64,000 nt of DNA, taken from positions 194 through 64,193 of the forward strand of contig JBHIBO010000009.1 of the NCBI GenBank assembly GCA_046759185.1, given 5' to 3'. The notes below the pieces were generated by a model. The model saw nothing but the letters and a program-made list of their open reading frames with translations. It was not told where the DNA came from and did not search any database. Numbering within the stretch: position 1 is the stretch's first letter; each line of letters begins with the position of its first letter. The translations under genes and the position numbers were made by a program. This DNA comes from Thermoplasmata archaeon. Lineage in GTDB: Archaea; Thermoplasmatota; Thermoplasmata; RBG-16-68-12; JAJISG01. Shown here in pieces: positions 42,224 to 56,246 of this stretch.

Positions 42224-43360
42224 TTAGGGCCGGAAGCGCGTGGGCCGCCCCCGTCTCCGGCCCACCCTCTGAGAGAGCTGGGCCTTCGAGAGCAGCTTCT
42301 CCTCAACGCTGGCCAGGAGTCTCGCTTCAAAGTCCTCCCCATCCCCTCGTCCAAATACGAGGGACCAGTCAAGCAAGTACTCTCCATTCGTGGCTCCCTC
42401 CACCGCCCCGATGCCCGCCTCCGTTCGCATCAGCACCGTGTCGAACCCGGTCGGAGACCCGGTACGGCCCACGGAGAGATCGGCAAAGCGGTTGGAGTAG
42501 TCAAGGCAGGAGAGGCAGCTGGAATCAAAGGCCAGATAGAACTCGGCCAGATCGATGCGCGAATCGGTCCCGTCCGAGTATCGAACGCGAACATCGTCGG
42601 GGACGGTGATGGATTCAACGAGCCGGCCCTGGGGGCTCACGGCCCGCTCGAAGAATCCCCTCTTCCATCGGGCATTCGAGAGGGCACCATAGCAGAACTC
42701 CCCGATGATGAGGGCGATGTCCTGACTTGGCGGGACCCCGTTGAGCTGCATCCGTCGAATCATCCGGGTCTGGCAGGGCTTGCTCACTACGGCCAGGCGC
42801 AGGGGCTTTGGCTCCGAGCGCCAGAGGTCGCGCAGGAAGCGTACCGTCTGAGGCTTGCGGAACGGGTCTCCCCGCGGCACTTCGACCGGGTCCTCTCGGC
42901 GGATCAGGGCGTGTCCGGTCGGGTTCGTGCCAGGAGGTGCCGGAACGACTGCGGCATCGATCTTCCCTGCCTCGAGGAGGTAGGTCAAGAGCGCGCGGAG
43001 GGTTCCCCGGTCATCTGGGCGAGGTTCCCACGAGGAGGAAGTCAGGCAGGTTGCCCGCAGGACGCGGCCCAAGGGACTCTCGCGGATCCCGTATCGGGTC
43101 TCCAGGGCCAGGTCCAGCTCTTCGACTTCCGGACAGGAGACGTAGCACATCCCAGCGGTCGCGCACTCGGAGGGCGCGTACTCGAAGGCGTCGCCACTGA
43201 CGGCGGCCGCGTCACATCCCTCCCGGGCACAGGCATCGAGACAGATGAGACAGAAGGTGCACCTACCGGGGTCGTAGACCTCGCGCAGGAGGTCCGCGAA
43301 TGTCTTGGGGGCCTCCCAAAGAGATCCGTCGGAGGTTCTCACTGCCACGGGCTGGGGCAT
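42224..43360 (-). CDS. FrhB/FdhB-family protein (coenzyme F420 hydrogenase/dehydrogenase beta subunit-like) with N-terminal 4Fe-4S motifs
   Basis: N-terminal Cys clusters CTFCLICLDAC and CYVSCP, followed by an FrhB-like body; 378 aa. Confidence 0.65.
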   Translation of the reverse strand: MPQPVAVRTSDGSLWEAPKTFADLLREVYDPGRCTFCLICLDACAREGCDAAAVSGDAFEYAPSECATAGMCYVSCPEVEELDLALETRYGIRESPLGRVLRATCLTSSSWEPRPDDRGTLRALLTYLLEAGKIDAAVVPAPPGTNPTGHALIRREDPVEVPRGDPFRKPQTVRFLRDLWRSEPKPLRLAVVSKPCQTRMIRRMQLNGVPPSQDIALIIGEFCYGALSNARWKRGFFERAVSPQGRLVESITVPDDVRVRYSDGTDSRIDLAEFYLAFDSSCLSCLDYSNRFADLSVGRTGSPTGFDTVLMRTEAGIGAVEGATNGEYLLDWSLVFGRGDGEDFEARLLASVEEKLLSKAQLSQRVGRRRGRPTRFRP

Positions 43361-45240: not shown

Positions 45241-45663
45241 TTAGAGGAGCTCGGCGTTGAGCGTGATCTCGGTGTTGAGTAGGCGGGAGATGGGACAATC
45301 CTCCTTTGCCCCCTCAGCCGCCTTTAGAAAGGCTTCGCTCGTCGCGCCTGGCACCTTAGCCACCACGTCGAGGTTGACGGAGGTCGTTGTCCACCCCCCT
45401 CCCGTCTTCTCAAAGTTCAGTGTCGCCGTGGTGCGGATGTCCTCCGGAGAGAATCCCGCGTTGCCCAGGGCGCTCGAGAGGGCCATGGAGAAGCAGCCTG
45501 CGTGAGCCGCCGCAACGAGCTCCTCGGGGTTCGTCCCCGGTTCGTCCTTGAACCGGGTGGTGAAGGAATAGGGGACCCCCTTCAGTACGCCGCTATCCGT
45601 CGAGAACGATCCCTTTCCGTCTTGGAGCCCGCCCAACCAGATGGCGCTAGCGTGTCGCTTCAA
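45241..45663 (-). CDS. osmC: OsmC/Ohr-family peroxiredoxin-like protein
   Basis: OsmC fold with two conserved Cys (AHAGCFSM and KEDCPIS); 140 aa. Confidence 0.8.
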   Translation of the reverse strand: MKRHASAIWLGGLQDGKGSFSTDSGVLKGVPYSFTTRFKDEPGTNPEELVAAAHAGCFSMALSSALGNAGFSPEDIRTTATLNFEKTGGGWTTTSVNLDVVAKVPGATSEAFLKAAEGAKEDCPISRLLNTEITLNAELL

Positions 45664-45835
45664 TTGTCACTCCCCGAGAAGACGACGGCCGGGCAGTGCC
45701 TTTAATGCTTGCCCCTGCGCAGAGTCCCCGGGCCGAGGGACAGAGGCGAACGCGGCACCGCCCAGCCGACACCAGGGTGTGAGCCGGCTCAGGATCGCCC
45801 TTACCTTCTTTATCGAGAGATCCCTCCTCTTACAG

Positions 45836-46486
45836 GTGGCGTCCCTCCTGGTCGAGTTCCGCGTGGCCTCCGACCGGTGTCCACTGATCCGCCTAACACG
45901 CGAATTTGAGAGTGTAGAGGTCGAGTACCTGGACATGGCCCAGACTTCAGGGGACGCGTTCCTGGAGGTTTTCGAGGTTCGGGGCCCTCGGGCAGTGGCG
46001 TTCGGCGAGGCCCTCGCGTCCACCAAGGGCGTCTCGCAGGTTCAAGTCCAGGAAGAGGGTTCCGACAAGATTGTTGGCCAGGGGGTCATCGCGCAACGCT
46101 GCGTTCGGAGGGTGTTGGCTCAGGACGGGTGGATGCCTTCGAAGGTCGTGGCGGCCGGGGGCAAGGAAACGATTTCCGTGTTTGTCTCCGATCTGGATGA
46201 GGCCCGCGATCTGGTCAACCACGTCCAGAACCAATACCCAAGCTTTGAGTTGGCAAAGATCACCTCTCAGGGATCGGGAGCTAGGGCCTTCGGGAGGGCG
46301 GGGGGCTTCGGTCTGACGCGGCGGCAGGAGGAGGTCCTGCGAAGGGCCATCTCCGAAGGCTACTTCGACTCCCACAGGAGAAAATCTGCCAAAGAGATCG
46401 CCGATCGCATGGGGGTCGACCGCAGCACCTTCGCACGCCACCTGCGCGCGGCTTTGAAGAAAGTGCTCTCGAACCTGCTGGGGTGA
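45836..46486 (+). CDS. HTH_10 (bacterio-opsin activator-like) DNA-binding protein
   Basis: C-terminal HTH_10-like segment LTRRQEEVLRRAISEGYFDSHRRKSAKEIADRMGVDRSTFARHLRAALKKV. Start uncertain (GTG at 45836 or ATG at 45935). Confidence 0.55.
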   Translation: MASLLVEFRVASDRCPLIRLTREFESVEVEYLDMAQTSGDAFLEVFEVRGPRAVAFGEALASTKGVSQVQVQEEGSDKIVGQGVIAQRCVRRVLAQDGWMPSKVVAAGGKETISVFVSDLDEARDLVNHVQNQYPSFELAKITSQGSGARAFGRAGGFGLTRRQEEVLRRAISEGYFDSHRRKSAKEIADRMGVDRSTFARHLRAALKKVLSNLLG

Positions 46487-46494
46487 GAGAGGAC

Positions 46495-47289
46495 TCAGAG
46501 ATTCAGAAACGGCTTCAGTGCGTCCGCCAGGGCCTGGACCTTCTCCTCCAAGGTTCCCGGAATGAACTGCCGCTTCCGTTCCACGGGTTCTCCCTCCACC
46601 AGGTCGTCCACGATGGTGAAGGAGCCCGCCAGTCCCACCTCCTCGTCCCGCAAGCCCAGGTCCGCCGCCGTCCATACCTGCACCCACCCGGACTCGGCTG
46701 CTGCCTCCACCCTGTCGAAGTCGGGGAACCGAGGCTCGTTGGAGCCCACCACCACGGATACGACGGCTGGCATCGGAGCGGCCAGGACCTCGTAGCTGGA
46801 TTCGAGAGCGCGTCGGGCGATGACGGAGTCCCCCTCCACCCGCACGTCGTCCGCAAAGGTGATCTGCGGGACGTCCAACCACTCCGCGAGGCCCGGGGGC
46901 ACCTGCCCTGTGCTGGAATCGGCGGACTCTTCCCCACAGATGACCAGATCGTACTTTCCCAGCTTCTCGACCGCCCGCGCCAGGGTGAGGGAGGTCGGGT
47001 AGGTGTCGGCACCGGCGAAGGCTCGATCGCTCAGCAAGACTGCCCGATCGGCCCCCATGCCCAGACAGAGCTCCAAGTATTCCTTGAACAAGGGCGGTCC
47101 CATGGAGATGAGGGTGACCGTGCCGCCGTAGGCGTCTCTGAGCGCCAAGGCCACCTCCAACGCGTTCTTGTCCGGCGGGTTCAGCACGTTCTCCGCGGCC
47201 GCCCGATCCAGGGTCTTCGTCTCCGGGTTCAGCGTGACCTCCTCGGGCTTGGGGACCACCTTCAGCGAGACGACGATGTGCATGCTCAT
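46495..47289 (-). CDS. etfB: Electron transfer flavoprotein beta subunit
   Basis: EtfB N-terminus MHIVVSLKVVPKPEEV; 264 aa. Confidence 0.85.
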   Translation of the reverse strand: MSMHIVVSLKVVPKPEEVTLNPETKTLDRAAAENVLNPPDKNALEVALALRDAYGGTVTLISMGPPLFKEYLELCLGMGADRAVLLSDRAFAGADTYPTSLTLARAVEKLGKYDLVICGEESADSSTGQVPPGLAEWLDVPQITFADDVRVEGDSVIARRALESSYEVLAAPMPAVVSVVVGSNEPRFPDFDRVEAAAESGWVQVWTAADLGLRDEEVGLAGSFTIVDDLVEGEPVERKRQFIPGTLEEKVQALADALKPFLNL

Positions 47290-48299
47290 GCCGCCACCAT
47301 CCTCGTCTCCTCAAGCTTTTCAATGAGGGGAGGGAGAAGTTCGAAGAGGTCCCCGACCACGCAGAGGTCCGCCTGGTCGAAGATCGGAGCATTCTCGTCG
47401 GTGTTGATGGCCACCACCGTGCTGACATCTTTCAGGCCGGAGACGAAGTGGCTGGCGCCACTGGCTCCGAGGATAATGGCCAGCTTGGATCGCAGGGAAA
47501 TGCCCGTGGAACCGACCTGTTTCTCGCGGCCAGCGACCCCAATGTCCACGAGCGGCCGGGTCACCCCGATGGCCGCGTCCAGCAGCGAGGCCAGCTCTTC
47601 CACCAGGGCGAGGTCGCCCCCAGTGCCCATGCCCGCCACGAGCGCCCGGAGGGCGGAATTGACCTCCTCCCGGGGCAAGACTCTTCGCTCCAAGACGCGG
47701 CAGCGAATCTCCTCCGGTCGGAGGTCCACGGCAACAGTCTCGACGTGCCCTTCCCGCGCGTCATCGGCTTCGAGAGGTGCAAAGATACCCGGGCGCACCG
47801 TAGACATCTGAGGGCGTCCCGTCTCCGACGTGATGATGGCAAGGATGCTTCCGCCAAAGCCCGGGACGGCGGATAGTAGGAGGCCCTTCTCACGATCCAC
47901 GTCGAGGCGGGTAGCATTGGCCGTGAGTCCCGTCCCAAGCCGGACGGCCAACCGACCGGCGAGATCTCTTCCATTATTCGTCGCGCCGAGGAGGAGGATG
48001 TTGGGTCTGCGCTCCTCGATGAGGTGGGCCATGACCTTCGCATAACCGTCCGTTGTGTACCCTGCCAAGAGGGGATGGTTCACCAAGAGGACCTCGTCCG
48101 CTCCGAATCGAATGGCCTCCCTTCCCAGGTCGTCTGTCTTGTGACCCAGGATGATGGCCGCGAGGGACTCGTCCAACTCGTCCGCCAACGCCCGGCCCCT
48201 GCCTAGGAGTTCGAGTCCCACCGGGAGGAGATGGCCTTGCTCCTGCTCCAGGTAGACCCAGAGACCCTGGTGGGCATCCCCCTGCGCCTTGGGGCTCAT
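47286..48299 (-). CDS. etfA: Electron transfer flavoprotein alpha subunit
   Basis: EtfA FAD-binding C-terminal domain; overlaps etfB by 4 nt. Confidence 0.85.
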   Translation of the reverse strand: MSPKAQGDAHQGLWVYLEQEQGHLLPVGLELLGRGRALADELDESLAAIILGHKTDDLGREAIRFGADEVLLVNHPLLAGYTTDGYAKVMAHLIEERRPNILLLGATNNGRDLAGRLAVRLGTGLTANATRLDVDREKGLLLSAVPGFGGSILAIITSETGRPQMSTVRPGIFAPLEADDAREGHVETVAVDLRPEEIRCRVLERRVLPREEVNSALRALVAGMGTGGDLALVEELASLLDAAIGVTRPLVDIGVAGREKQVGSTGISLRSKLAIILGASGASHFVSGLKDVSTVVAINTDENAPIFDQADLCVVGDLFELLPPLIEKLEETRMVAA

Positions 48300-49450
48300 C
48301 CCCGCACCGCCTTCGTTGGGGCAAGCAGCTCCATCACGTCGACGACGCGGGCCCCCTGCATCCGGTGCGTGCTATCCTCGAAGTTCTGGATGCAGTAAGG
48401 ACACGAGGTGGCCAGAAGCGGGATGTCCGCCTCCTTCACCTGCTCCATCCGCTTGTCGGACAGCCTCTCTCCCCCCTCCTCCCGCCACATGCCTCCGCCG
48501 CCCCCTCCGCAACAGAGGGCGTTCAGCCGGTTGTCCCGCAATTCCTCAAGCTCCAGGCCGGGCACCGACTCCAAGAGCTTCCTTGGAGGTTCGAAGATGC
48601 CGTTGTAGCGACCCAGGTAGCAGGGATCGTGGTAGGCCACCCGGGAACCCTTCACCTTGGCCGGCTTCAGGATCCCCTTGTCCAGCATGTGCTCCAGGTA
48701 CTCCGTGTAGTGAAGCACCTCGGCCTCCAGGCCGTAGCGGGGGTACAGATTCCGGAACATGTCGAAGCAGTGAGGAGAGATGGCCACGATGGTGTTCGCT
48801 CCTGTACCCTCGAAGGTCTTCACGTTCTCCTCGACGAGCCCCTGCAGGTAGCCCCTCTCGCCGGTGACGCGCACCGCGTCCCCGCAGCACCTCTCCCGGC
48901 TCCCCAGGATACCCACCTCCACGCCGGCCTGGTTGAGAACCTGCATTAGGCCTCGGGCCACGCCCTGCAAGCGGGGATCGTAGGAGCCTGCACATCCCAC
49001 ATACAGCAGGACGGACACCCCCTCGGCGGCGTCCCGCACCTTCAGGCCCTCGGCCCACCTAGCCCGCTCGGACCGGGGGTCGTTCCAGGGATTTCCCTCC
49101 TCCAGGGTCGACCAGAGGAGCTTGTTCATCTCGCGTGGAACCGTCCTCGCCTTGAAGGCCAGGGCCCGGAGCCCCATGATGGCCTCCACAATGTGGACAT
49201 CTCGGGGGCAGCGGACTTCGCAGGAGCGGCAGGCGCTGCACATCCAGATGTCTTCCATCCCCCCCTCCAGACCCAGCTGGGCCCGCCGAAGAATCCTTCG
49301 GGCTGAGAGGGGGCGATCGAGGTAGGACAGGAGGGGGCAAGACGCGGTGCAGGTCCCGCATTGGAAGCAGGGATTCATGGCCCCAGCCGTGATCTCATAC
49401 ACCTTCTGCCAGAGCTCGTCGTCCAGCTCCACCACGGCCTCGGCCATCAT
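48296..49450 (-). CDS. HdrD/GlpC-like Fe-S oxidoreductase with two 4Fe-4S ferredoxin motifs and two CCG domains (soluble, no TM)
   Basis: Ferredoxin motifs CFQCGTCTASCP and CSACRSCEVRCP; CCG domains CCGD...PHCF and CCGGGGG...CPYC. Confidence 0.8.
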   Translation of the reverse strand: MMAEAVVELDDELWQKVYEITAGAMNPCFQCGTCTASCPLLSYLDRPLSARRILRRAQLGLEGGMEDIWMCSACRSCEVRCPRDVHIVEAIMGLRALAFKARTVPREMNKLLWSTLEEGNPWNDPRSERARWAEGLKVRDAAEGVSVLLYVGCAGSYDPRLQGVARGLMQVLNQAGVEVGILGSRERCCGDAVRVTGERGYLQGLVEENVKTFEGTGANTIVAISPHCFDMFRNLYPRYGLEAEVLHYTEYLEHMLDKGILKPAKVKGSRVAYHDPCYLGRYNGIFEPPRKLLESVPGLELEELRDNRLNALCCGGGGGGMWREEGGERLSDKRMEQVKEADIPLLATSCPYCIQNFEDSTHRMQGARVVDVMELLAPTKAVRG

Positions 49451-52400
49451 TCCGCCCCCTCCGCGACCTCCGCTTCGCGCGTGCTGTCTTGCAGTTCCTG
49501 AATCCGCTCGTGCAGCTGCTGCATTCGCTGGGCGAACAGCTTCCCCTCCGCGGCGGTGAACCAGCCCAGATCGAGCTTCTGGGGGTCATAGCCCCGGGCC
49601 TCCACCTTCTTCTTCCACCGACGGAACCGTTTCTCCGTCTCGTAGTTGGCCGTTAGGTAGTGGCAGTCGCCCAGGTGGCAACCGCTGATCATGACCGCCC
49701 CCGCCGAACGCTCGAAGGCCCGGAGGATAAACTTCTCCGAGACCCGGCCGGAGCACATGGTTCGGATGATACGGGAGGACGGCGGGTACTGGAACTTGGC
49801 GATGCCCGCCTGGTCCGCTCCGGCGTAGGAACACCAGTTGCAGGCGAAGACCACGGCCTTGTCCTCGGGGTTCTCCTCCGTCGCGGCGTCGACCTGGGCG
49901 AGTATCTGTTCGTCGGTGTACCCGGGCATGGTGATGGCGTCTACGGGGCAGGCCGCGGCGCAGGTGCCACAGCCCGTGCACGCCGCCTCCACCACGATGG
50001 CGGGTTCCTTCACCTCCGCGATGATGGCATGATAGGGGCAGACCTTGGCGCAGAGGGTGCAGCCCGTGCACGCCTCGGCGTCCACGATGGCCGTCAGCGG
50101 CTCCATCTCCACCTCATCCCGAGCCAGGAGCACGGACGCCTTGCCCGCGGCGCCCAGTCCCTGGGAGATGGACTCCCCGACGTCCTTCGGCCCCTGGCAG
50201 GCACCGGCCAGGTACACCCCTTGGACCGCAGCCTCCGTGGGTCCTAGCTTGGGGTGGCTCTCCAGGAGGAAGCCGTCCTGTCCTATGGACAACTTGAGTT
50301 GCTCCTCCACCGCGCCAGGGACGGGGGGGTCGAGGCCCACTACCAGGACCAGCTGGTCCGAGGGAATGGCCACGTCCTCGTCCGAAAGCGTGTCATGGAG
50401 GAGGAGGCGGCCGTCCTCCCAGGCGACCTGCTCCTCTGTGGCCGCCTCGTCCGAAATCCGAAAGAACTGGACGCCCCAACGGCCTGCTTCCTCGTAGAGC
50501 TCCTCGGCGTGACGGCTGTAGGTCCGGATGTCTTTGGAGACCACGCGGACCCTCTTGCCCTGCTTGCGCAGTCGGAGGGCCTGCTGAATCATGGACTGGC
50601 AGCAGTACCGGGAGCAGCCCTTGTCGCCCTGGCGGGAGCCGATGCAGCCCAGGAAGGTGACCTTCTCGGCCTCCGCGGAGGGCATCGTCTGCTCTAGGTC
50701 CAGGTTGGTGATGACCCGGGCATCCTCCCCGTATCCCAGCGTGTCCGGGACGAAGGGCGTGGCCCCCGTGGCCATCACGATGCCGCCGACGTTCAGATTC
50801 TCGTCGTTAGTCAAGGTGACGTCAAAGTTGCCGACGTAACCGCTGACCACCTCGACCTCCGTGCCGAGGTGGACCTTCACGCCGGCCTGGGCCACCTCCC
50901 GTTTCTTCTCTCGCACGACCTCCCGGCCGGGGAGTCCGATGCCCGACACGTGGTCCAGCTTCCGGACAATCCCCCCGAGCTGCAGCTCCCGCTCGACGAG
51001 GTGGGTCTCGAAGCCCTGATCCGCGAGGGCCGTAGCGGCGCTCATACCGGCCACGCCTCCGCCGACCACCAGTGCCTTCCGGACGACCTGCTGCCGCACC
51101 TTCGCCAAGGGCTGGAGGCGTCGGGCCTTCTCCACCGCCATCCTCACCAAGTCCTGGGCCTTCCCCGTGGCCGCCTCGGGCTCCTTCTTGTGAACCCACG
51201 AGTCCTGGTTCCGGATGTTGGCCATCTCCAGCAGGTAGGGGTTCAGGCCCGCCCGTGCACAGGCCTTCATGAAGGTGGGCCCGTGGGTCTTCGGGGAGCA
51301 CGCCGCCACCACGGCCCGATTGAGCTTCTTATCCCGAATGGTCTCAGTGATCTGCCTCAGGGTGTTGGCCGAGCAGGAGAACATCTGCCGTTGAGCATGG
51401 GCGACCCCATCCAGATCTCCTGCGGCGTCCACGACCTCCGGGACGTTCACGGTGCCCGCGATGTTGGACCCGCAGTCGCAGATGAAGACGCCCACCTTGG
51501 GGTCCCCCGAGACGTCGATGGGCTCCACGGCCTCAGGGACGGGCCAGGTCCGGGTCTCGACGTAGCTCAGGGCGCTCGCGGCGGCGCCGCTGGCCCCCGC
51601 CACGCTGTCCGGGATGTCCTTGGGACCGGAGGCGCAACCGGCCACGTAGATACCGTCCCGGGTCGTCTGTTCCAGGCTGCCTCGGGTCCCGACGGTCCGA
51701 ACGAAGCCGTCGGTGTCGACCTCCACTTCGAGGACGGAGGCCAGGTCCTCCAGCCCCCTGGACGGCAGCAGGGCCGGGGCCAGGACCACGAGGTCGAAAT
51801 CCTCCTCCTGGACAGCGCCCGCGTAGGTGTCCTCGTAGCGCACACGGACATCCCCACCGTTGCCTTGAATCTGGGAAGGCCGTCCGCGAATGTACCGGAC
51901 GCCCTCTTCCTGGCTCCGGTGGAAGAAGTCGTCGAAGCCCTTTCCGTAGGCCCGGATGTCCATGTAGAGGACCGTGACGTCCTCAATCCCGTGGTCCACG
52001 GCCTGGACGGCCTCCTTGATGGAGTACATGCAACAGACCCGAGAGCAGTAGTGGCAGAACCGGTGGTCCCGAGAGCCCACGCACAGGACGAAGAGGAGGC
52101 GACCAGGATGGGTCCCGTCACTGGGCTTCACCACCTCTCCGGCCGTGGGCCCTGCGGCGTTCAGGAGCCGCTCGAACTCCATGGAGGTGAGGATGTCCGG
52201 GTGTTCGCCGTATCCGTATTCCGGCAGGTTGCGGGGGTCGAAGAGATCGAAGCCCGTTGTTACGATGACGGCGGCGGCCTCGCGGACGTGGCGCGTGACG
52301 GGTTTCATGTTGAAGTCGATGCATTTCGGCAGGCAGGCCTCGACACATCGACCGCAAGGGAGGTAGTTGGGGGGTTCGTTGAGACACGCGTCGACATCGA

Positions 52401-52836
52401 TGGTGTAGGCGCCGGGCTCCGCCTGTTCGAAGGGCGTGTAGATGGCCTTCCTCGCACCCACGCCCACGTCGAACTCGTTGGGCAGAATCTGAGGGCACAC
52501 AGGCACGCAGTCGTCGCATCGGGTGCACTCGTCGGTGACGTAACGGGCCGCCTGATCGATAGTGACGGTAAACGCCCCCGCGCTACCCTCGACCTCCGTT
52601 ACCTCGGCTAGGGGTAGGACCTCAATGTTCTCGTTCTGGATGACCTCGCTGATCTTCGGAGCCTCGATGCAAATGGAACAGTCCAACGTGGGGAAATTCT
52701 TGTCCAGGGCGGCCATCTTCCCGCCGATGGAGGGGGTCCGTTCCACCAAGGTGACCCGGCAGCCTGCGTCCGCCAGGTCCAAGCAGGCCTGGATGCCTGC
52801 GATGCCTCCGCCGATGACGACGACACGGTTCTCCAT
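49447..52836 (-). CDS. hdrA: Heterodisulfide reductase subunit A-like flavoprotein fused to MvhD (HdrA-MvhD, 1129 aa, second Rossmann/FAD-like region present)
   Basis: N-terminal region VVVIGGGIAGIQACLDLADAG with the HdrA Cys cluster, several 4Fe-4S motifs, a second region ALVVGGGVAGMSAATALADQG, and a C-terminal MvhD domain (VVFACNWCSYAGAD...GCHLGDCHY). Confidence 0.8.
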   Translation of the reverse strand: MENRVVVIGGGIAGIQACLDLADAGCRVTLVERTPSIGGKMAALDKNFPTLDCSICIEAPKISEVIQNENIEVLPLAEVTEVEGSAGAFTVTIDQAARYVTDECTRCDDCVPVCPQILPNEFDVGVGARKAIYTPFEQAEPGAYTIDVDACLNEPPNYLPCGRCVEACLPKCIDFNMKPVTRHVREAAAVIVTTGFDLFDPRNLPEYGYGEHPDILTSMEFERLLNAAGPTAGEVVKPSDGTHPGRLLFVLCVGSRDHRFCHYCSRVCCMYSIKEAVQAVDHGIEDVTVLYMDIRAYGKGFDDFFHRSQEEGVRYIRGRPSQIQGNGGDVRVRYEDTYAGAVQEEDFDLVVLAPALLPSRGLEDLASVLEVEVDTDGFVRTVGTRGSLEQTTRDGIYVAGCASGPKDIPDSVAGASGAAASALSYVETRTWPVPEAVEPIDVSGDPKVGVFICDCGSNIAGTVNVPEVVDAAGDLDGVAHAQRQMFSCSANTLRQITETIRDKKLNRAVVAACSPKTHGPTFMKACARAGLNPYLLEMANIRNQDSWVHKKEPEAATGKAQDLVRMAVEKARRLQPLAKVRQQVVRKALVVGGGVAGMSAATALADQGFETHLVERELQLGGIVRKLDHVSGIGLPGREVVREKKREVAQAGVKVHLGTEVEVVSGYVGNFDVTLTNDENLNVGGIVMATGATPFVPDTLGYGEDARVITNLDLEQTMPSAEAEKVTFLGCIGSRQGDKGCSRYCCQSMIQQALRLRKQGKRVRVVSKDIRTYSRHAEELYEEAGRWGVQFFRISDEAATEEQVAWEDGRLLLHDTLSDEDVAIPSDQLVLVVGLDPPVPGAVEEQLKLSIGQDGFLLESHPKLGPTEAAVQGVYLAGACQGPKDVGESISQGLGAAGKASVLLARDEVEMEPLTAIVDAEACTGCTLCAKVCPYHAIIAEVKEPAIVVEAACTGCGTCAAACPVDAITMPGYTDEQILAQVDAATEENPEDKAVVFACNWCSYAGADQAGIAKFQYPPSSRIIRTMCSGRVSEKFILRAFERSAGAVMISGCHLGDCHYLTANYETEKRFRRWKKKVEARGYDPQKLDLGWFTAAEGKLFAQRMQQLHERIQELQDSTREAEVAEGAE

Positions 52837-53375
52837 TAGCTGGCACCTCCTCGGGCAAGCTCTCGGCCCTTCCGGAAGGCCTCCTCGTTGAGCTGTTCTG
52901 TGCCCTTGGGTACGCTGTCCAGAATCGCTCTCCGAGCGCCCTCCTCGGTCACGACATCGGTGAGCTCGACCAGGGCCCCGATCATGACGATGTTCGCCAC
53001 GACCTTCTTGCCCATCGCTTCGGCGGCCTTGAGGGCCGGAATGAAGCTAGTCCTCCGGCTCCATTCCCTCGTCGGGTGGACCAGTCCCTTCTCGAAGAGG
53101 GCCTGGCCATCGGGCTTCATTGTCTCGTGGAATCGGTCGAACGCGTCTTGGGCCATGGCCATGAAGATGTCAGGCTTCTCCACGAGCGGGTAGCGAATCT
53201 CCTTCTCGCTGATGACCAGGTCCGCCTTGGACCAGCCCCCCATCTTCTCCGGGCCGTAGTCCTCCGTCAGGACGGCGGCCCCATGGTCGTATAGGACGGC
53301 GGCCCGACCAAGGATCTTGCCCGTGGTGATGATGCCCTGGCCGCCGAAACCCGCCATACGAATTTCGGTCCTCAC
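52836..53375 (-). CDS. korC: 2-oxoacid:ferredoxin oxidoreductase gamma subunit
   Basis: Gamma-subunit signature GFGGQGIITTGKIL; 179 aa. Confidence 0.8.
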   Translation of the reverse strand: MRTEIRMAGFGGQGIITTGKILGRAAVLYDHGAAVLTEDYGPEKMGGWSKADLVISEKEIRYPLVEKPDIFMAMAQDAFDRFHETMKPDGQALFEKGLVHPTREWSRRTSFIPALKAAEAMGKKVVANIVMIGALVELTDVVTEEGARRAILDSVPKGTEQLNEEAFRKGRELARGGAS

Positions 53376-54223
53376 GGCAACCCCTCCCGGACCTTCCGGA
53401 GGAGCTTGTCCTTGCCGACATGGTATGCGGCTCGCTCCACGTCCACGAAGTTGCCCACGACGATGGGATCTCCCCGCCGCATGGTAATCCCCACCTCCCT
53501 GAGGTCGGCATCGTTGTCCACGACGGCCTCGTGACGGAAGTGAGTCATCTCGTCCATCGCGTCCGCGAACCTGTTCTTCCGGCCGAAGCCGATGGGGCAG
53601 GGAGAGATCATCTCCACAAATGCCAGCCCATCCACTTCGAAGGCTCGCCGGATGGCGTCTTTCAGTTGGCGCACGTGGAGCGTGGTCCAGCGAGCCACAA
53701 AGGGTGCACCGCAGGCCGCGGCCAGCAGAGGCATGTTGAAGGCTTGCTCAAAGTTACCGTAGGGCGTGGTGGTCGTCCGGGCGGCGTAGGGCGTCGTGGC
53801 CCCGAACTGCCCTCCTGTCATGCCATAGTTGAAGTTGTTCACGAACAGGAGATTGAGGTCGAGGTTGCGGCGGACCGCGTGGATGAAATGGTTGCCTCCA
53901 ATGGTGATCAGGTCCCCGTCGCCCGAGAAAACGGTCACCTCAAGTTCCGGCCTCATTAGTTTGAGGCCCGTCGCGAAGGGAATGGGCCTCCCGTGGGTGG
54001 TGTGGTACGAATCGATGTTGACGTAGCCGGCCACGCGCGCGCTACAACCAATCCCCGAGACGACGACGTGCTTGTCTGAAGGCGTCTCGGACTCCTCAAT
54101 GGCCTCCACGTAGCACCGAACGGCGTTCCCCAGTCCGCAGCCGGGGCACCAGATGTGAGGGAACCTCTCCTTCCGCAGCAGGACGTCTTCTGGATGGCTG
54201 TCCGTCAGCGATGTGCCGCTCAT
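53372..54223 (-). CDS. korB: 2-oxoacid:ferredoxin oxidoreductase beta subunit (TPP)
   Basis: Motifs WCPGCGLGNAV and GIGCSA...FSGDGDLITIGGNH. Confidence 0.85.
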   Translation of the reverse strand: MSGTSLTDSHPEDVLLRKERFPHIWCPGCGLGNAVRCYVEAIEESETPSDKHVVVSGIGCSARVAGYVNIDSYHTTHGRPIPFATGLKLMRPELEVTVFSGDGDLITIGGNHFIHAVRRNLDLNLLFVNNFNYGMTGGQFGATTPYAARTTTTPYGNFEQAFNMPLLAAACGAPFVARWTTLHVRQLKDAIRRAFEVDGLAFVEMISPCPIGFGRKNRFADAMDEMTHFRHEAVVDNDADLREVGITMRRGDPIVVGNFVDVERAAYHVGKDKLLRKVREGLP

Positions 54224-55395
54224 GCGACCGCCCTCCTCAGAGCACGCAAGATCTCCTTCGGATGGAAGATGCGTCCCCCAGGGAGCCCCAGGTGATGCAC
54301 ATCGCAGTCGGCCGCCTCTCTAGCAGGATGGACCATCTGGCCCATGTTGACCTCGGCGACGACAATCGAGTCGACTTGCCCGGAAAGCCGGCGCACGGGT
54401 TTCCTGGGAAAGGGCCACGCCGTGATGAGGCGCAACATGCCAGCTTTGATGCCCTCCTTCCGAGCCGCCTGGACGGCTTCCCAACCAGGTCCCGAAGTGG
54501 AGCCGTAGACCACGAGTCCCACCTCGGCGTCGTCAACGAGCCGCTGCTCGTACTCGACGATCTCTTCCTCGTTCTCCCTGATCTTCCCCGCGAGCCGGGG
54601 GACGAGGGCCTCCTGGCTCAGGGGGCTCGTGACCGGGTAGCCGATGTCATTGTGGGTTAGCGCCGTCATGTGAAACCGGTAGCCCTCCCCAGGTAGGGCC
54701 ATGGGGGGCACAAGGTGCGAGCTGTCGAAGGGCAAGTAGCCCTCCGCCGGGACGTCGGGTATGGGCCGGTACGCCGTCTCGATCTCCTCTTCGGGTGGAA
54801 TGACGAGCCTCGTGGTCATCTGGCCGATGATCTGGTCTGCCATCACCATGACGGGAATGCGATACGTCTCCGCCGCGTTGAAGGCCTTGATGGCAAAATC
54901 GAACATCTCCTGGACCGTGCCCGGAGCGTAGGCCACCATCTCGTAGTCCCCATGGGAGCCCCAGCGGGCTTGCATCATGTCCCCTTGGGAGGTCAAGGTC
55001 GGTAGGCCTGTGCTCGGCCCGCCCCGTTGCACGTCCACGATGACACACGGGGCCTCGAGCATGAAGGCCAGGCCGACATGCTCCATCATCAGGGACAGCC
55101 CGGGGCCCGAGGTGGCGGTCATGGCCTTCGCCCCCCCGCAGGAAGCTCCGATGACGGCCGCGAGACTCCCCATCTCGTCCTCCATCTGGATGTATTCGCC
55201 GCCCACCAGCGGAAGCCTCTGGGAGGCCCTCTCGGCGATTTCTGAGGAGGGCGTGATGGGGTATCCGGCGTAGAATCGACAGCCGGCAGCGATGGCCCCC
55301 TCCATCACGGCGATGTCACCTTTGACGAAGTGCTCTCCTGTCAGCACGGGGCGGGGATCAAGCAACGGCTTCCACCTCCAAGGAGTAGATGGCAA
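54220..55395 (-). CDS. korA: 2-oxoacid:ferredoxin oxidoreductase alpha subunit
   Basis: [10 protein letters not shown] region and alpha-subunit body, 391 aa; 4-nt overlaps with neighbours. Confidence 0.85.
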
Positions 55396-56068
55396 ACTCC
55401 GGACACACGTCTCGGCACATTCCGCAGTTGACGCAGGCGTCCTCCTTCCCCTCCCTCACCCTCGGGTAGCGGTAGCCCTTCTCGTTGAGCTCCTCGCTCT
55501 TCTCGAGGACGTCCAACGGACAGAGCTCCCAGCAGAAGGAGCACTCCTTGCACCGGTGGGGGAGGACGTAGACCCGTCCCCGGGGGGCGGCTTGCCGATC
55601 GAGATCGACGGGGGTTCGCAACGATTGGAGGTAAAGGGCTTCCCGGGAGACGGGCTGCAAGCTCGGCCTTGGGAAGGTCTCCGCCAAGACGGGGGGCTCC
55701 AGAGGAGCCCCTTCGACCTCCATCGACTCGGAGGGTGGGACCACCAGGTGTTGCTCGACCTCCTCCATCGGCAGGTCGCCAAACAGAGCACGAACGGCCT
55801 CACCCATCGTCTGGAGGAACTCGTCTCGAATGTCTCGGTACTCATAGACGTAGCGAAAGCGACCCCGGAAAGACTTCTTCCTTCGGTCGATGATGCCACG
55901 GGCGTGGAGGCGATCAAGGACTGTGCTCACGGTGGCGTAGGTGACCTCCGTGCCGGAGTCACTCAATGCCTCCTTCACGCGTCGAGTCGGCGCGCTGTGG
56001 AGGCTCCGGAGGACACCCAGAACGCGTGTCTCGAGAGGGCCTAACCTCAAGGTCCGAACCTCGGACAA
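55358..56068 (-). CDS. Fusion: N-terminal BlaI/TrmB-like winged HTH + C-terminal 2x[4Fe-4S] ferredoxin (OFOR delta-subunit-like)
   Basis: wHTH region [15 protein letters not shown]...[34 protein letters not shown]. The C-terminus carries [12 protein letters not shown] and [12 protein letters not shown], typical of PorD/KorD. TTG start; in-frame ATG alternatives exist further downstream. Confidence 0.55.
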
Positions 56069-56082
56069 TTGTAATAGTACAA
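56069..56082. promoter_or_regulatory. Overlapping palindromes ACAATTGT / TTGTA-ATAG-TACAA immediately upstream of the wHTH-ferredoxin gene start
   Basis: Inverted repeat TTGTAatagTACAA abutting the annotated start codon, in a 178-nt intergenic spacer. Confidence 0.35.
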
Positions 56083-56246
56083 CTATCCGTAAAGCCGGTC
56101 TGCAACTATGCGGAGGCTTTTTGAGGGGATGCCAGCAGCCCCGAACGACCCTTCTCCTGGGAGGCTGCGGCTAGGAAGCCACCGGTCCGGTTGATGCCCA
56201 CGCCTTCGGACGTTCTGAGGATCGGACAACGAGGAAGACAACGCCG

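What the first reader, a model, noticed from the sequence alone, without database searches (positions are those of the whole stretch)
46495..56068. Eight-gene co-directional cluster joining a four-subunit 2-oxoacid:ferredoxin oxidoreductase to HdrA-MvhD, an HdrD-like CCG protein and EtfAB: candidate flavin-based electron-bifurcating assembly
The genes korD(wHTH-Fd)-korA-korB-korC-hdrA::mvhD-(CCG-domain Fe-S protein)-etfA-etfB are consecutive on one strand with 1-4 nt overlaps. That pattern suggests one transcript and one complex. HdrA is the bifurcating flavoprotein of methanogens and sulfate reducers, and Etf is bifurcating in other contexts. Combining an OFOR (low-potential ferredoxin), HdrA-MvhD, a soluble HdrD-like disulfide-reductase module and Etf is not a described complex. 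It could link 2-oxoacid oxidation to NAD(H)/Etf and a disulfide or quinone-type acceptor. The HdrA is unusually long (1129 aa) with a second Rossmann/FAD-like region.
Basis: partly seen in the sequence, partly recalled or inferred. Interest (0 to 1): 0.7.

Follow-up and report, generated by a model that had tools for sequence, protein, structure and literature searches.

The report
OFOR–double HdrA–EtfD-like–Etf redox cassette
Eight tightly packed genes of a Thermoplasmata archaeon, kept in the same order in many unrelated archaea and bacteria, appear to encode one soluble machine that wires a 2-oxoacid-oxidising enzyme to two kinds of energy-splitting flavoproteins; nobody seems to have described or tested this combination.

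Summary
Eight minus-strand genes (46495-56068) overlap by 1-8 nt: korD (fused to a wHTH), korA, korB, korC, a 1129-aa double HdrA fused to MvhD, a CCG iron-sulfur protein, etfA and etfB. All 18 related loci long enough to judge keep the same eight genes, order and tight spacing. They come from Thermoplasmata, Nitrososphaeria/Caldarchaeales, Chloroflexota, Elusimicrobiota and others, and no flanking gene is shared, so this is a self-contained, horizontally moving cassette.

The reading needs two corrections.
- The CCG protein is not Hdr-like at the decisive residues. Its closest solved relative is mycobacterial EtfD, which takes electrons from Etf, and it keeps EtfD's His-ligated, non-catalytic cluster site. 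That His is present in 21/21 Etf-containing cassettes. It is Glu in 24/24 related cassettes that lack Etf.
- The long HdrA is an asymmetric fusion. Only the N-terminal core keeps the inserted ferredoxin domain and the Lys needed for bifurcation.

Best model: OFOR, via KorD, connects to the HdrA low-potential arm. The HdrA high-potential arm connects through the EtfD-like wire to Etf. No disulfide or quinone site is evident. Direction and the third substrate are unknown. I found no description of this cassette; related ideas exist (Flx-Hdr-Kor clusters, type II HdrA).

The parts
56051..56120 (-). Promoter/operator region of the cassette. It holds a TATA-like TTTA (56090-56093) and a TGTA-N4-TACA dyad (56070-56081), 20-31 nt upstream of the g1 start.
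   Evidence: About 180 nt of non-coding DNA separates g1 from the upstream gene. The blocks CATAGTTGCA...TTTA...GTGTACTnTTACAAT are conserved between the window and L001, with the dyad half-sites kept and the spacer varied. A function as an operator is inferred, not shown.
55358..56050 (-). g1: BlaI/MecI/CopY-type winged helix fused to the KorD delta subunit (2x[4Fe-4S]). The longest ORF starts at 56068.
   Evidence: Pfam Penicillinase_R at residues 9-88 and Fer4_7 at 172-224; the best NCBIfam hit is OGOR_delta. The fusion (~230 aa) is conserved in 23 protein clusters down to 45% identity, all in a Thermoplasmata clade. Elsewhere KorD is a plain ferredoxin, mostly 70-112 aa with one of 134 aa.
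54220..55365 (-). g2: OFOR alpha subunit (KorA).
   Evidence: POR_N + PFOR_II. NCBIfam PRK08659 scores 509.7 bits, above its cut-off of 411. Best solved relatives are P. furiosus 2-ketoacid:Fd oxidoreductase alpha (9e-112), 2-oxoglutarate synthase alpha (2e-78) and OGOR 6n2n (5e-62); PFORs are far weaker.
53372..54223 (-). g3: OFOR beta subunit (KorB), binding TPP and a [4Fe-4S] cluster.
   Evidence: TPP_enzyme_C. The sequence shows CPGC, GIGC, SPC and GDGD...NN.
52836..53375 (-). g4: OFOR gamma subunit (KorC).
   Evidence: POR domain across the full length. The best NCBIfam hit is PRK08537, below its cut-off.
51547..52836 (-). g5 residues 1-430: HdrA core N. It has a FAD core, DCSIC, an inserted 2x[4Fe-4S] ferredoxin domain, a CxGSRD...CSRxCC cluster, and equivalents of E356 and K409.
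   Evidence: Aligns to HdrA residues 151-514 (362 bits). The motifs are conserved in 21 orthologues, and K274, E222 and R223 are invariant in 43 sequences. The AF2 half superposes on HdrA cores with TM 0.9.
51097..51516 (-). g5 residues 441-580: homologue of the HdrA N-terminal [4Fe-4S] domain, placed between the two cores.
   Evidence: Aligns to HdrA residues 7-182 (171 bits). CxCGSNI...ACSPKTH is conserved.
50122..51084 (-). g5 residues 585-905: HdrA core C. GxGxxG and CxGSR...CSRYCC are kept. It has no inserted ferredoxin domain and no DCSxC, and the K409 position is variable (Gln in the window).
   Evidence: (alignment to 5odc_A, numbering counted there).
49873..50109 (-). g5 residues 910-988: C-terminal 2x[4Fe-4S] ferredoxin domain.
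   Evidence: Fer4_21 at 916-970. Aligns to HdrA residues 514-655.
49489..49866 (-). g5 residues 991-1116: fused MvhD ([2Fe-2S]) domain.
   Evidence: FlpD 5.6e-42. MvhD chains score 1e-32 to 4e-36. The Cys pattern CNWC...CSGR...GC..CHY is invariant.
48296..49450 (-). g6: soluble EtfD-like iron-sulfur protein. The N-terminal half is HdrC-like (2x[4Fe-4S]). The C-terminal half has two CCG domains. The complete site is C277, C313, C314, C350, C353 plus H227. The incomplete site is C153, C188, C189, S225, C228.
   Evidence: There is no hydrophobic segment (maximum KD19 0.97).
47286..48299 (-). g7: EtfA (large subunit; holds the electron-transfer FAD).
   Evidence: ETF + ETF_alpha. Best solved relatives are bifurcating Etfs (CarE 6e-71). 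The ET-site Arg is kept. SGAIQH has become SGAx[H/Q]F, and the Arg of TRPAFGGN has become V/T throughout the family.
46495..47289 (-). g8: EtfB (small subunit; site of the second nucleotide).
   Evidence: ETF. Best solved relatives are bifurcating Etfs at 2e-50, against 4e-19 for canonical Etfs. The T94/T97 equivalents are kept. KQVPD has become KVVPK/R, and GRQAIDGDTAQVG has become GEESSDGxTGQVP.
45641..46486 (+). BAT/HTH_10 (DmsR_N-like) regulator, convergent with etfB. It is associated with the cassette only in Thermoplasmata.
   Evidence: Pfam. A homologue lies next to the cassette in L001 and L081 as well.

Best explanation
The eight genes encode one soluble, membrane-free redox complex built around a fused, asymmetric double HdrA-MvhD.

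Shown by sequence:
- An OGOR-type four-subunit OFOR.
- An HdrA whose N-terminal core has every feature of a bifurcating HdrA, including the inserted ferredoxin domain. In methanogens that domain is the low-potential exit.
- A second HdrA core that carries the other accessory domains (the N-terminal-type cluster domain, the C-terminal ferredoxin and MvhD) but lacks the bifurcation Lys.
- An iron-sulfur protein that is HdrC-like in its N-terminal half and EtfD-like in its C-terminal half (His-ligated noncubane cluster).
- An Etf of the bifurcating lineage.

Inferred wiring:
- Low-potential arm: TPP/[4Fe-4S] of KorAB, then KorD, then the inserted ferredoxin domain, then the FAD of core N.
- High-potential arm: the FAD of core N, then the HdrA [4Fe-4S], then the two cubane clusters of g6, then its His-ligated cluster, then the electron-transfer FAD of Etf.

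Etf then connects to the mid- and high-potential pools. These would be NAD(H) at its remodelled second nucleotide site and/or FAD dehydrogenases that dock on Etf.

Net effect: a reversible flavin-based bifurcation/confurcation that couples the 2-oxoacid / acyl-CoA + CO2 couple (about -500 mV) to Etf-level and NAD(H)-level electrons, without free ferredoxin and without a disulfide.

This archaeon also has a housekeeping two-subunit OFOR and 2-oxoacid dehydrogenase E1 genes. I therefore think the oxidative, confurcating direction is more likely: 2-oxoglutarate electrons pull Etf-level electrons up to NADH level. Direction and the third substrate are guesses.
For: Cassette behaviour:
- Same eight genes, order, strand and -4/-1 nt junctions in 18 of 18 sufficiently long related loci from several archaeal and bacterial phyla. 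Independent gene calls in L081 and L082 agree.
- No flanking gene is conserved across phyla.
- Identity ranks of seven of the eight genes track each other (rho 0.66-0.83; EtfB only 0.39, p = 0.11). Bacterial copies are as close to the window as other Thermoplasmata copies, which fits transfer as a unit.
- None of the eight cassette genes is a stand-alone ferredoxin, and no flanking gene is shared across phyla; I did not screen the flanks specifically for ferredoxins.

HdrA:
- Domain map from alignments to solved HdrA and MvhD and motif conservation.
- The AF2 model is confident as a whole (pLDDT 84.6, pTM 0.86). Both halves superpose on HdrA.
- In methanogens the inserted ferredoxin domain is the low-potential exit and is wired by a polyferredoxin directly to the CO2-reducing Fwd.

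g6:
- EtfD is the best solved relative (5.5e-55), and all six ligands of its non-catalytic D2 cluster are present.
- His227 is present in 21/21 and Ser225 in 21/21 Etf-containing cassettes. Etf-less cassettes have Glu in 24/24 and Cys in 24/24 at those positions.
- Its N-terminal half matches HdrC (2e-20).

Others:
- The Etf is nearest to bifurcating Etfs.
- KorA is nearest to OGOR-type enzymes, and sucCD lies beside the cassette in L081.
- Precedent for the idea: korABCD sits inside flxABCD-hdrABC in rTCA clusters and is co-expressed.
Against: - There are no biochemical, transcript or co-purification data for any member.
- Every contact between subunits is inferred from homology and gene order. 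I could not model complexes.
- A bifurcating scheme needs three redox partners, and the third is not encoded in the cassette.
- The Etf site that should bind the bifurcating FAD and NADH has lost the conserved Arg. Its replacement in R. palustris Etf lowers FAD binding. The equivalence of positions is my inference. It also differs in two EtfB motifs, so NAD(H) use is uncertain.
- The incomplete CCG site of g6 matches neither EtfD nor HdrB.
- The role of core C and its FAD is unknown.
- In Etf-less cassettes the same OFOR-HdrA core is paired with an Hdr-like CCG protein and an HdrA::MvhD-HdrC-HdrB set. The core logic may therefore not depend on Etf.
- OFOR substrate specificity is not established.
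Confidence: 0.5

Rival explanations
1. Flx-Hdr-like scheme. EtfAB is only the NADH dehydrogenase module that feeds MvhD. HdrA bifurcates. The low-potential electron goes to the OFOR (or comes from it). The high-potential electron goes through g6, acting as a true HdrD-type disulfide reductase, to an unknown thiol/disulfide.
For: - g6 has the HdrC + two-CCG architecture and keeps the Hdr-type CC pair in its first CCG domain.
- FlxABCD-HdrABC with interspersed korABCD is the published analogue.
- MvhD is the usual entry point for the mid-potential donor.
Against: - g6 carries the His that in EtfD completes the cluster coordination and makes it non-catalytic, and it has Ser in place of the first Cys of CxxC. 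Both hold in 21/21 cassettes. Etf-less cassettes keep the Hdr pattern in 24/24.
- g6 scores better against EtfD than against HdrB/C or against the CCG partners of related HdrAs.
- No thiol-carrier gene lies in or near the cassette.
Confidence: 0.15
2. A plain two-port enzyme: a ferredoxin-independent 2-oxoacid:NAD+ oxidoreductase. HdrA, g6 and Etf only relay electrons downhill from the OFOR to NAD+, with no energy coupling.
For: - Only two substrates, a 2-oxoacid and possibly NAD(H), can be read from the cassette.
- NCBIfam lists an OFOR-related NADH-dependent phenylglyoxylate dehydrogenase (Pad subunits appear as weak hits). A 2-oxoglutarate:NADP+ oxidoreductase of Azoarcus is known to me from memory only.
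Against: - Those enzymes, as I recall, need only one small flavoprotein.
- Here two large flavoproteins with four predicted flavin sites are kept intact across phyla.
- The bifurcation residues of core N are invariant.
Confidence: 0.12
3. Reductive, serial bifurcation. Etf bifurcates NADH and passes its low-potential electron through MvhD to HdrA. HdrA bifurcates again, and Etf/g6 collects the high-potential electrons. The result is reductant strong enough to drive acyl-CoA carboxylation (2-oxoglutarate or pyruvate synthase) in respiring organisms.
For: - Two bifurcation-type flavoproteins sit in one cassette.
- In variant 2 the Etf is replaced by another bifurcation-type module, HdrA::MvhD-HdrC-HdrB.
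- A double bifurcation was proposed for type II HdrA clusters.
- HdrA in methanogens is wired to a CO2 reductase.
- rTCA clusters with kor inside flx-hdr are a further precedent.
Against: - No ATP-citrate lyase or other autotrophy genes were seen in the annotated part of the window or loci.
- The scheme is wasteful, since three of four electrons go downhill.
- The Etf bifurcating site is remodelled.
- The final high-potential sink is not identified.
Confidence: 0.1
4. There is no physical complex. An OFOR, an Hdr-like protein pair and an Etf are separate enzymes that share ferredoxin and a regulator and travel together as a metabolic island.
For: - Castelle et al. treated co-located Hdr, PFOR and OGOR genes of Zixibacteria as separate ferredoxin-dependent complexes.
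- No interaction data exist.
Against: - Invariant order and 1-4 nt overlaps persist across domains of life despite 40-60% sequence divergence.
- No ferredoxin gene is included.
- The CCG-protein subtype co-varies with the presence of Etf.
Confidence: 0.1

Closest known systems
Mvh/Fdh-HdrABC-Fmd/Fwd supercomplexes of methanogens (PDB 5ODC, 7BKB; Hdr-Vhu-Fwd, PMC13518236)
   Same: - HdrA with FAD, an inserted ferredoxin domain and MvhD.
- The low-potential arm is wired directly to a CO2-handling enzyme without free ferredoxin.
- Core N keeps the E356 and K409 equivalents.
   Different: - Here the two HdrA protomers are fused into one asymmetric chain.
- The low-potential partner is an OFOR.
- There are no hydrogenase or formate dehydrogenase genes and no HdrB.
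- The HdrC-like protein ends in an EtfD-like module next to Etf.
flxABCD-hdrABC with interspersed korABCD in rTCA clusters of Ca. Endoriftia and Thioflavicoccus mobilis (PMC6315080, PMC11636981)
   Same: - A four-subunit OGOR is genetically embedded in an Hdr-type bifurcating system.
- The authors proposed direct electron shuttling to the OGOR, and the genes are co-expressed.
   Different: - The NADH module there is FlxABCD, not EtfAB.
- Those clusters carry the standard hdrABC gene set and thiol:fumarate reductase genes (tfrAB).
- The context is an rTCA/ACL cluster in autotrophs.
- It is also untested biochemically.
Type II HdrA (two thioredoxin-reductase cores) of methane-metabolising archaea (PMC12054007)
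   Same: - Two TrxR-type cores in one chain.
- Clusters sometimes hold an extra HdrA and HdrD.
- No biochemistry is available.
   Different: - That paper reports both cores keeping E356 and K409. Here core C does not keep the Lys.
- The partners there are a catalytically dead molybdopterin protein and FdhB (F420). Here they are an OFOR and Etf.
EtfD of mycobacteria (PDB 9OJN, PMC13083937) and the related Etf:menaquinone oxidoreductases
   Same: - Two cubane clusters plus two CCG domains.
- A noncubane [4Fe-4S] site with five Cys and one His, all conserved in g6.
- The partner is Etf.
   Different: - g6 has no transmembrane, haem b or quinone part.
- The linear [3Fe-4S] ligand set is not kept (Ser at C581, Cys at T539).
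- The other end presumably docks on HdrA instead of a membrane domain.
Bifurcating EtfAB complexes (Bcd-Etf 5OL2, CarCDE 6FAH, LctBCD 7QH2, EtfABCX 7KOE)
   Same: g7 and g8 are 30 or more orders of magnitude closer to these than to canonical Etfs. The ET-site Arg and the T94/T97 equivalents are kept.
   Different: - No FAD dehydrogenase partner is encoded in the cassette.
- The Arg near the bifurcating flavin is lost.
- The EtfB motifs KQVPD and GRQAIDGDTAQVG and the EtfA motif SGAIQH are altered throughout the family.

Membership tests
Four-subunit 2-oxoacid:ferredoxin oxidoreductase (KorDABC / OGOR type) | Alpha (POR_N + PFOR_II), beta (TPP_enzyme_C), gamma (POR) and delta (2x[4Fe-4S]) subunits encoded together | tested here: met
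   Pfam hits are all above gathering cut-offs. KorA is above the NCBIfam cut-off.
Four-subunit 2-oxoacid:ferredoxin oxidoreductase (KorDABC / OGOR type) | Beta-subunit TPP motif GDG...NN and Cys ligands for the proximal [4Fe-4S]; two CxxCxxCxxxCP motifs in delta | tested here: met
   Read directly from the translations: CPGC, GIGC, SPC and GDGD...NN in g3; [12 protein letters not shown] and [12 protein letters not shown] in g1.
Four-subunit 2-oxoacid:ferredoxin oxidoreductase (KorDABC / OGOR type) | Specificity for 2-oxoglutarate | not testable with these tools
   The best family and PDB hits are OGOR-type, and sucCD lies beside the cassette in L081. KorB, KorC and KorD fall below the equivalog cut-offs.
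HdrA (bifurcating flavoprotein of heterodisulfide reductase) | TrxR-type FAD core with the CxGSRD...CSxxCC [4Fe-4S] cluster | tested here: met
   Both cores have it. NCBIfam HdrA2 scores 1171 bits against a cut-off of 1100. Foldseek TM is 0.78-0.9 to HdrA chains.
HdrA (bifurcating flavoprotein of heterodisulfide reductase) | Inserted ferredoxin domain and the E356/K409 pair (M. thermolithotrophicus numbering) | tested here: met
   Met by core N only; these residues are invariant in 43 sequences. Core C lacks the inserted domain, and its K409 position is variable.
HdrABC heterodisulfide reductase (whole enzyme) | HdrB-type subunit with two complete CX(n)CCGX(m)CXXC motifs forming catalytic noncubane clusters | tested here: not met
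   In g6 the first CCG site has Ser in place of one Cys. The His that makes the EtfD cluster non-catalytic is present in 21/21 cassettes.
Type II HdrA (PMC12054007) | Two thioredoxin-reductase cores in one polypeptide | tested here: met
Type II HdrA (PMC12054007) | Both cores retain the two key FBEB residues | tested here: not met
   The K409 equivalent of core C is Gln in the window and variable in orthologues.
MvhD | FlpD fold with the conserved Cys set for a [2Fe-2S] cluster | tested here: met
   FlpD 5.6e-42. MvhD chains score ~1e-36. The Cys residues are invariant.
EtfD / Etf:quinone oxidoreductase of the HdrD-like type | Noncubane [4Fe-4S] D2 site: five Cys plus His583 | tested here: met
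   C277, C313, C314, C350, C353 and H227 align to C637, C672, C673, C709, C712 and H583. They are conserved in 21/21 cassettes.
EtfD / Etf:quinone oxidoreductase of the HdrD-like type | Linear [3Fe-4S] D1 ligand set (C503, C538, C581, C584; Thr at 539) | tested here: not met
   g6 has Ser at the C581 position and Cys at the T539 position.
EtfD / Etf:quinone oxidoreductase of the HdrD-like type | Transmembrane haem b / quinone domain | tested here: not met
   g6 is 384 aa with a maximum 19-residue hydropathy of 0.97, and the alignment covers only the soluble part of EtfD.
Bifurcating Etf (group 2) | Overall similarity to the bifurcating clade rather than to canonical Etf | tested here: met
   EtfB scores 2e-50 against 4e-19; EtfA scores 6e-71 against 2e-23.
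Bifurcating Etf (group 2) | Residues around the bifurcating FAD: T94/T97 of EtfB and the conserved Arg of EtfA (R165 in R. palustris numbering) | tested here: inconclusive
   The T94/T97 equivalents are kept (GADTYPTS; numbering counted on the A. fermentans sequence). The Arg of TRPAFGGN is V/T in all orthologues. That this Arg equals R165 is my inference.
Bifurcating Etf (group 2) | NADH-dependent bifurcation with two FAD per heterodimer | not testable with these tools
   This needs flavin analysis and enzyme assays.
FlxABCD-HdrABC | FlxA-D subunits (an NAD(P)H-binding flavoprotein plus FeS subunits) | tested here: not met
   There is no Flx homologue among the eight genes or the flanks.

The most novel reading that the evidence does not exclude
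The cassette is a ferredoxin-free, two-flavoprotein energy converter of a kind not yet seen. An OFOR is hard-wired to a fused double HdrA, whose high-potential arm ends in Etf through a soluble EtfD-like wire. The cassette is spread by horizontal transfer among mostly respiring, uncultured archaea and bacteria.

It could work in either of two ways:
- It runs two bifurcations in series to make reductant strong enough for 2-oxoacid synthesis from NADH.
- It confurcates 2-oxoacid and Etf-level electrons into NADH.

Either would answer how organisms without Rnf or hydrogenases, and perhaps aerobic archaea, handle OFOR electrons.
Probability: 0.2. Interest if true: 0.85.

Novelty: new variant of a known kind. 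Interest (0 to 1): 0.68.

Why it matters
Flavin-based electron bifurcation is known from about a dozen enzyme types. Each new type has changed how the energy budgets of anaerobes and microaerobes are drawn.

This cassette joins modules that have never been reported together:
- an OFOR;
- a fused double HdrA-MvhD;
- an EtfD-like wire;
- an Etf of the bifurcating lineage.

Its distribution argues for a selectable, self-sufficient function:
- The Etf-containing form occurs in at least 18 species-level genomes of Thermoplasmata, Nitrososphaeria/Caldarchaeales, Chloroflexota, Elusimicrobiota and, by protein names, Methylomirabilota and Armatimonadota.
- A sister form occurs in Zixibacteria, Planctomycetota, Gemmatimonadota and others.

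If it is a complex, it gives a concrete, testable answer to an open point. That point is how the very low-potential electrons of 2-oxoacid oxidation are conserved, or produced for carboxylation, in organisms that respire and lack the classical ferredoxin sinks.

Two further findings come from the analysis:
- A clear sequence marker, His versus Glu at the CxxC of the first CCG domain, separates Etf-docking CCG proteins from Hdr-type ones.
- An Etf subfamily has a rebuilt bifurcating site.

Tried and rejected
- **Conserved neighbours.** I looked for genes beyond the eight that might reveal the third substrate, such as acyl-CoA dehydrogenase, a thiol carrier or a hydrogenase. All-against-all comparison of flanking ORFs in 23 loci found none shared across phyla. 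sucCD lies near the cassette only in L081 and L029.
- **FrhB/FdhB-like gene.** The gene 3 kb away (42224-43360) could be a mid-potential module, but it is not linked to the cassette elsewhere.
- **Glutamate synthase or another FAD family for g5.** Rejected. All top sequence and fold hits are HdrA.
- **Membrane or quinone link.** Rejected. No hydrophobic segment exists in g6, and the other proteins have none beyond normal core strands.
- **Literature.** Ten searches found no description of the cassette. The Etf classification paper (Garcia Costas 2017) is not held, so I could not assign an Etf group.
- **Bacterial promoter/terminator scan.** Uninformative for an archaeon, apart from the absence of minus-strand terminators.
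- **AF2 of g5.** It gave a confident model, but the tools give no coordinates. I could not test whether the two cores pack like the HdrA homodimer, or measure cluster-to-flavin distances. Complexes cannot be modelled here.
- **wHTH-KorD as an assembly or annotation artefact.** Rejected. The fusion is conserved in 23 protein clusters.

Full report
**1. What is in the sequence**

Window 46495-56068 holds eight consecutive minus-strand ORFs. Pfam and NCBIfam assign them as follows.
- g1: a BlaI/CopY-type winged helix (Penicillinase_R, residues 9-88) fused to a KorD-like 2x[4Fe-4S] domain.
- g2: KorA (POR_N + PFOR_II; NCBIfam PRK08659 at 509.7 bits, above its cut-off of 411).
- g3: KorB (TPP_enzyme_C).
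- g4: KorC (POR).
- g5: 1129 aa, matching the NCBIfam HdrA2 model at 1171 bits (cut-off 1100) in three stretches, plus FlpD/MvhD.
- g6: Fer4_8 plus two CCG domains.
- g7: ETF + ETF_alpha.
- g8: ETF.

Six junctions overlap by 1 or 4 nt. The g1/g2 junction depends on the start chosen; TTG 55365 gives the same 8-nt overlap as the called genes of L081. g1 most likely starts at the second TTG, at 56050. GC3 is 0.79-0.87 for g1-g6, the cassette ORFs reported by the crude caller. Long antisense ORFs in the same stretch are high-GC shadows. About 180 nt of non-coding DNA precede g1. A convergent regulator gene ends 9 nt from etfB. The contig is a 'Thermoplasmata archaeon' MAG. Archaeal markers (aIF-2B, Nop56/58) lie nearby.

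**2. Conservation**

A scan of one genome per GTDB species with g5 found 583 relatives, of which the best 80 were fetched. I ran tblastn with the eight window proteins on these loci and made ORF calls. The full order korD-korA-korB-korC-hdrA-CCG-etfA-etfB is on one strand, mostly with -4/-1 nt junctions, in every locus of the closest group whose contig is long enough (18 of 18). Four more loci are cut off by contig ends but are consistent.

The hosts of these loci are:
- Thermoplasmata and Thermoplasmatota;
- MAGs labelled Halobacteriales;
- Nitrososphaerales and Nitrosopumilales MAGs;
- Ca. Caldarchaeum, Ca. Geocrenenecus and Ca. Thermofontivivens;
- Anaerolineae, Dehalococcoidia and other Chloroflexota;
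- Elusimicrobiota.

Protein names add Rokubacteria/Methylomirabilia, Armatimonadota and Kariarchaeaceae. Independent gene calls with precomputed Pfam confirm the cassette in L081 (archaeal) and L082 (Armatimonadota).

No flanking gene is shared across phyla. Per-gene identities to the window rise and fall together across loci (Spearman 0.66-0.83 against HdrA; EtfB 0.39). Bacterial copies (57-59% HdrA identity) are as close to the window as other Thermoplasmata copies (52-55%). The cassette is therefore self-contained and moves horizontally as a unit.

Two sister architectures exist.
- **Variant 2:** korDAB(C), a double hdrA, a separate mvhD, a CCG protein, then hdrA::mvhD-hdrC-hdrB, with no Etf. 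It occurs in Zixibacteria, Phycisphaerae/Planctomycetales, Gemmatimonadota, Eisenbacteria, Ignavibacteria and others.
- **Variant 3:** no OFOR. It occurs in Desulfobacteraceae, Syntrophales, Archaeoglobus, Methanoperedens and Asgard archaea.

**3. The long HdrA**

Alignments to solved HdrA and MvhD chains give the following map.
- Residues 1-430 are an HdrA thioredoxin-reductase-type core with the inserted 2x[4Fe-4S] ferredoxin domain.
- Residues 441-580 are a homologue of the HdrA N-terminal cluster domain.
- Residues 585-905 are a second core.
- Residues 910-988 are the C-terminal ferredoxin domain.
- Residues 991-1116 are MvhD.

I counted residues on the 5odc_A alignment. The two residues that PMC12054007 uses as markers of bifurcation (E356, K409) are present in core N (E222, K274), and these are invariant in 43 family members. 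Core C keeps GxGxxG and the CxGSR...CSRYCC cluster. It has no inserted domain and no DCSxC, and its K409 position is variable (Gln in the window).

The protein thus holds two cores but only one copy of each accessory domain. It is a fused, asymmetric version of the HdrA dimer. AlphaFold2 with 43 homologues gives pLDDT 84.6 and pTM 0.86. Foldseek superposes one part on whole HdrA subunits (TM 0.78, 654 columns) and another part on HdrA cores (TM 0.9). I could not test how the two cores pack. 'Type II HdrA' with two cores has been named in methane-metabolising archaea, with no biochemistry and with different partners.

**4. The CCG protein is EtfD-like**

Its best solved relative is 9ojn_A at 5.5e-55 (190 bits), compared with 2e-20 for HdrC (N-terminal half only) and 1e-4 for HdrB. 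9OJN is M. smegmatis EtfD. EtfD takes electrons from Etf and passes them through a linear [3Fe-4S] cluster (D1), a noncubane [4Fe-4S] cluster (D2) and two cubane clusters to haem b and menaquinone. In EtfD, His583 completes the coordination of D2 and makes it non-catalytic and shielded, unlike HdrB.

The alignment shows all six D2 ligands in g6: C277, C313, C314, C350, C353 and H227. At the D1 site g6 has C153, C188, C189, S225 and C228, which matches neither the EtfD set nor the Hdr set.

The subtype tracks Etf:

| Cassette type | Position of H227 | Position of S225 | Local motif |
|---|---|---|---|
| With Etf (21) | His, 21/21 | Ser, 21/21 | SPHC |
| Without Etf, variants 2/3 (24) | Glu, 24/24 | Cys, 24/24 | CPEC-type, Hdr-like |

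g6 also scores higher against the EtfD fragment (191 bits) than against the variant 2/3 CCG proteins (106-159 bits). g6 has no hydrophobic segment.

I conclude that g6 is a soluble EtfD-like wire. Its HdrC-like end most plausibly docks on HdrA, and its CCG end on Etf. It is probably not a disulfide reductase.

**5. The Etf**

Both subunits are far closer to structurally characterised bifurcating Etfs (CarDE, Bcd-Etf, A. fermentans Etf, LctBC, 7KOE) than to canonical Etfs. The ET-site Arg is kept. So is the Thr pair that hydrogen-bonds the ribose of the bifurcating FAD (T94/T97; numbering counted on the A. fermentans sequence; role).

The whole family nevertheless differs from the references at several conserved motifs:
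- EtfB KQVPD has become KVVPK/R.
- EtfB GRQAIDGDTAQVG has become GEESSDGxTGQVP.
- EtfA SGAIQH has become SGAx[H/Q]F.
- The Arg of EtfA TRPAFGGN has become Val or Thr.

I infer that this last Arg is the conserved Arg beside the bifurcating flavin. Its replacement by neutral residues lowers FAD binding in R. palustris Etf. Whether this Etf binds a second FAD and uses NADH therefore cannot be decided from sequence.

**6. The OFOR**

KorA is nearest to P. furiosus 2-ketoacid:ferredoxin oxidoreductase alpha, 2-oxoglutarate synthase alpha and M. marinus OGOR. PFORs are distant. The best NCBIfam hits of all four subunits are OGOR-type, but only KorA passes a cut-off. L081 has sucCD 2.4 kb from the cassette; most other loci do not.

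The window also encodes a two-subunit OFOR (37127-39731) and 2-oxoacid dehydrogenase E1 subunits (32130-34229). The cassette OFOR is therefore an extra, specialised copy.

**7. Regulation**

The wHTH-KorD fusion is confined to a Thermoplasmata clade. It is conserved there in 23 protein clusters of ~230 aa, down to 45% identity. Other hosts have a plain KorD, mostly 70-112 aa, with one of 134 aa.

Upstream of g1, the window and L001 share CATAGTTGCA, a TTTA box and a TGTA-N4-TACA dyad, which lies 20-31 nt before the start. The half-sites are conserved and the spacer differs. This suggests autoregulation by the fused subunit, but that was not tested. A BAT/HTH_10 regulator lies next to the cassette in the window, L001 and L081.

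**8. Mechanism**

*Shown:* the domain and ligand inventory above, and the conservation.

*Taken from established knowledge of homologues:*
- In HdrA, the inserted ferredoxin domain is the low-potential exit.
- The core [4Fe-4S] cluster leads to HdrC on the high-potential side.
- MvhD brings in mid-potential electrons.
- EtfD accepts electrons from the Etf flavin.

*Inferred:*
- KorD docks on the inserted ferredoxin domain. The OFOR then exchanges electrons at about -500 mV directly with the bifurcating FAD of core N.
- g6 links the high-potential arm to the ET-FAD of Etf.
- Etf links to NAD(H) and/or to FAD dehydrogenases.

A purely two-substrate reaction (2-oxoacid and NAD+) could run only downhill and would not need this machinery. 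A third partner at Etf level is therefore expected but is not encoded in the cassette. I favour the oxidative, confurcating direction in this heterotroph, with the reverse reaction possible. Rivals are listed with their weights in the rival explanations.

**9. Comparison with the literature**

Ten full-text searches found no description of this cassette. The nearest items are:
- korABCD interspersed in flxABCD-hdrABC of rTCA clusters, proposed to shuttle electrons directly to the OGOR;
- type II HdrA;
- the remark that Zixibacteria co-locate Hdr, PFOR and OGOR genes, read there as separate complexes;
- methanogen Hdr-Fwd/Fmd supercomplexes;
- EtfD.

The library does not hold most subscription-journal papers, so absence from it is not proof of novelty.

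**10. Verdict**

The finding is real, conserved and unexplained, and it is built from known modules in a new arrangement. It is a new variant of the known kind 'Hdr/Etf-type flavin-based bifurcating complexes'.

Noticed in passing
L019:10001-11750 (Ca. Caldarchaeum MAG JAWBJZ010000029): The hdrA of the same cassette carries an in-frame ~500-aa intein. It runs from Cys to VSN, is followed by Cys, and has LAGLIDADG-type motifs. It is inserted exactly before the Cys of DCSI|C, the site equivalent to C197/U197 of methanogen HdrA.
   Followed up: partly
L052:~10190, L022, L037; second hdrA of L052 at ~15470: In the Etf-less sister cassettes, both HdrA genes have an in-frame TGA at the same DCSI[TGA] position. 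This is likely selenocysteine. The window and the other Etf-containing cassettes have Cys there.
   Followed up: partly
window 55720-56050 (N-terminal part of g1) and 56070-56081: A BlaI/CopY-type DNA-binding domain is fused to the ferredoxin subunit of an OFOR, and a conserved TGTA-N4-TACA dyad lies in its own promoter. This could be a redox-sensing autoregulator. The fusion is limited to one Thermoplasmata clade.
   Followed up: partly
window 37127-39731 (+) and 32130-34229 (-): A second OFOR of the two-subunit type (gamma-alpha fusion plus a beta subunit with PFO_beta_C) and 2-oxoacid dehydrogenase E1 alpha/beta genes lie in the same window. The organism thus has at least three systems for 2-oxoacid oxidation.
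   Followed up: no
window 42224-43360 (-): An FrhB/FdhB-like protein with a 4Fe-4S domain (a possible F420- or flavin-dependent module) lies 3 kb from the cassette. It is not linked to the cassette in other genomes.
   Followed up: partly
window 20928-22391 (-): A single 487-aa ORF combines ThiS, ThiF and rhodanese domains, a triple fusion of a sulfur-carrier system.
   Followed up: no
window 45641-46486 (+); L001:6054-6707; L081:5070-5723: A BAT/HTH_10 (DmsR_N-like) regulator stays next to the cassette in three Thermoplasmata genomes, although its position and orientation change.
   Followed up: partly
window 46483-47811 (+), 50869-52611 (+), 45947-47428 (-): ORFs of 442-580 aa that are antisense to, or out of frame with, the cassette genes are artefacts of the 65% G+C content. 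A naive longest-ORF caller picked one of them instead of etfAB.
   Followed up: yes
L070 and L075 (Asgard MAGs), about 5-7.7 kb into each locus, upstream of hdrA: CCG proteins of 714-736 aa have the EtfD-type SPH motif but lack the Cys residues of the first CCG site. They resemble the FadF/DgcB-type EtfD homologues mentioned in PMC13083937.
   Followed up: no
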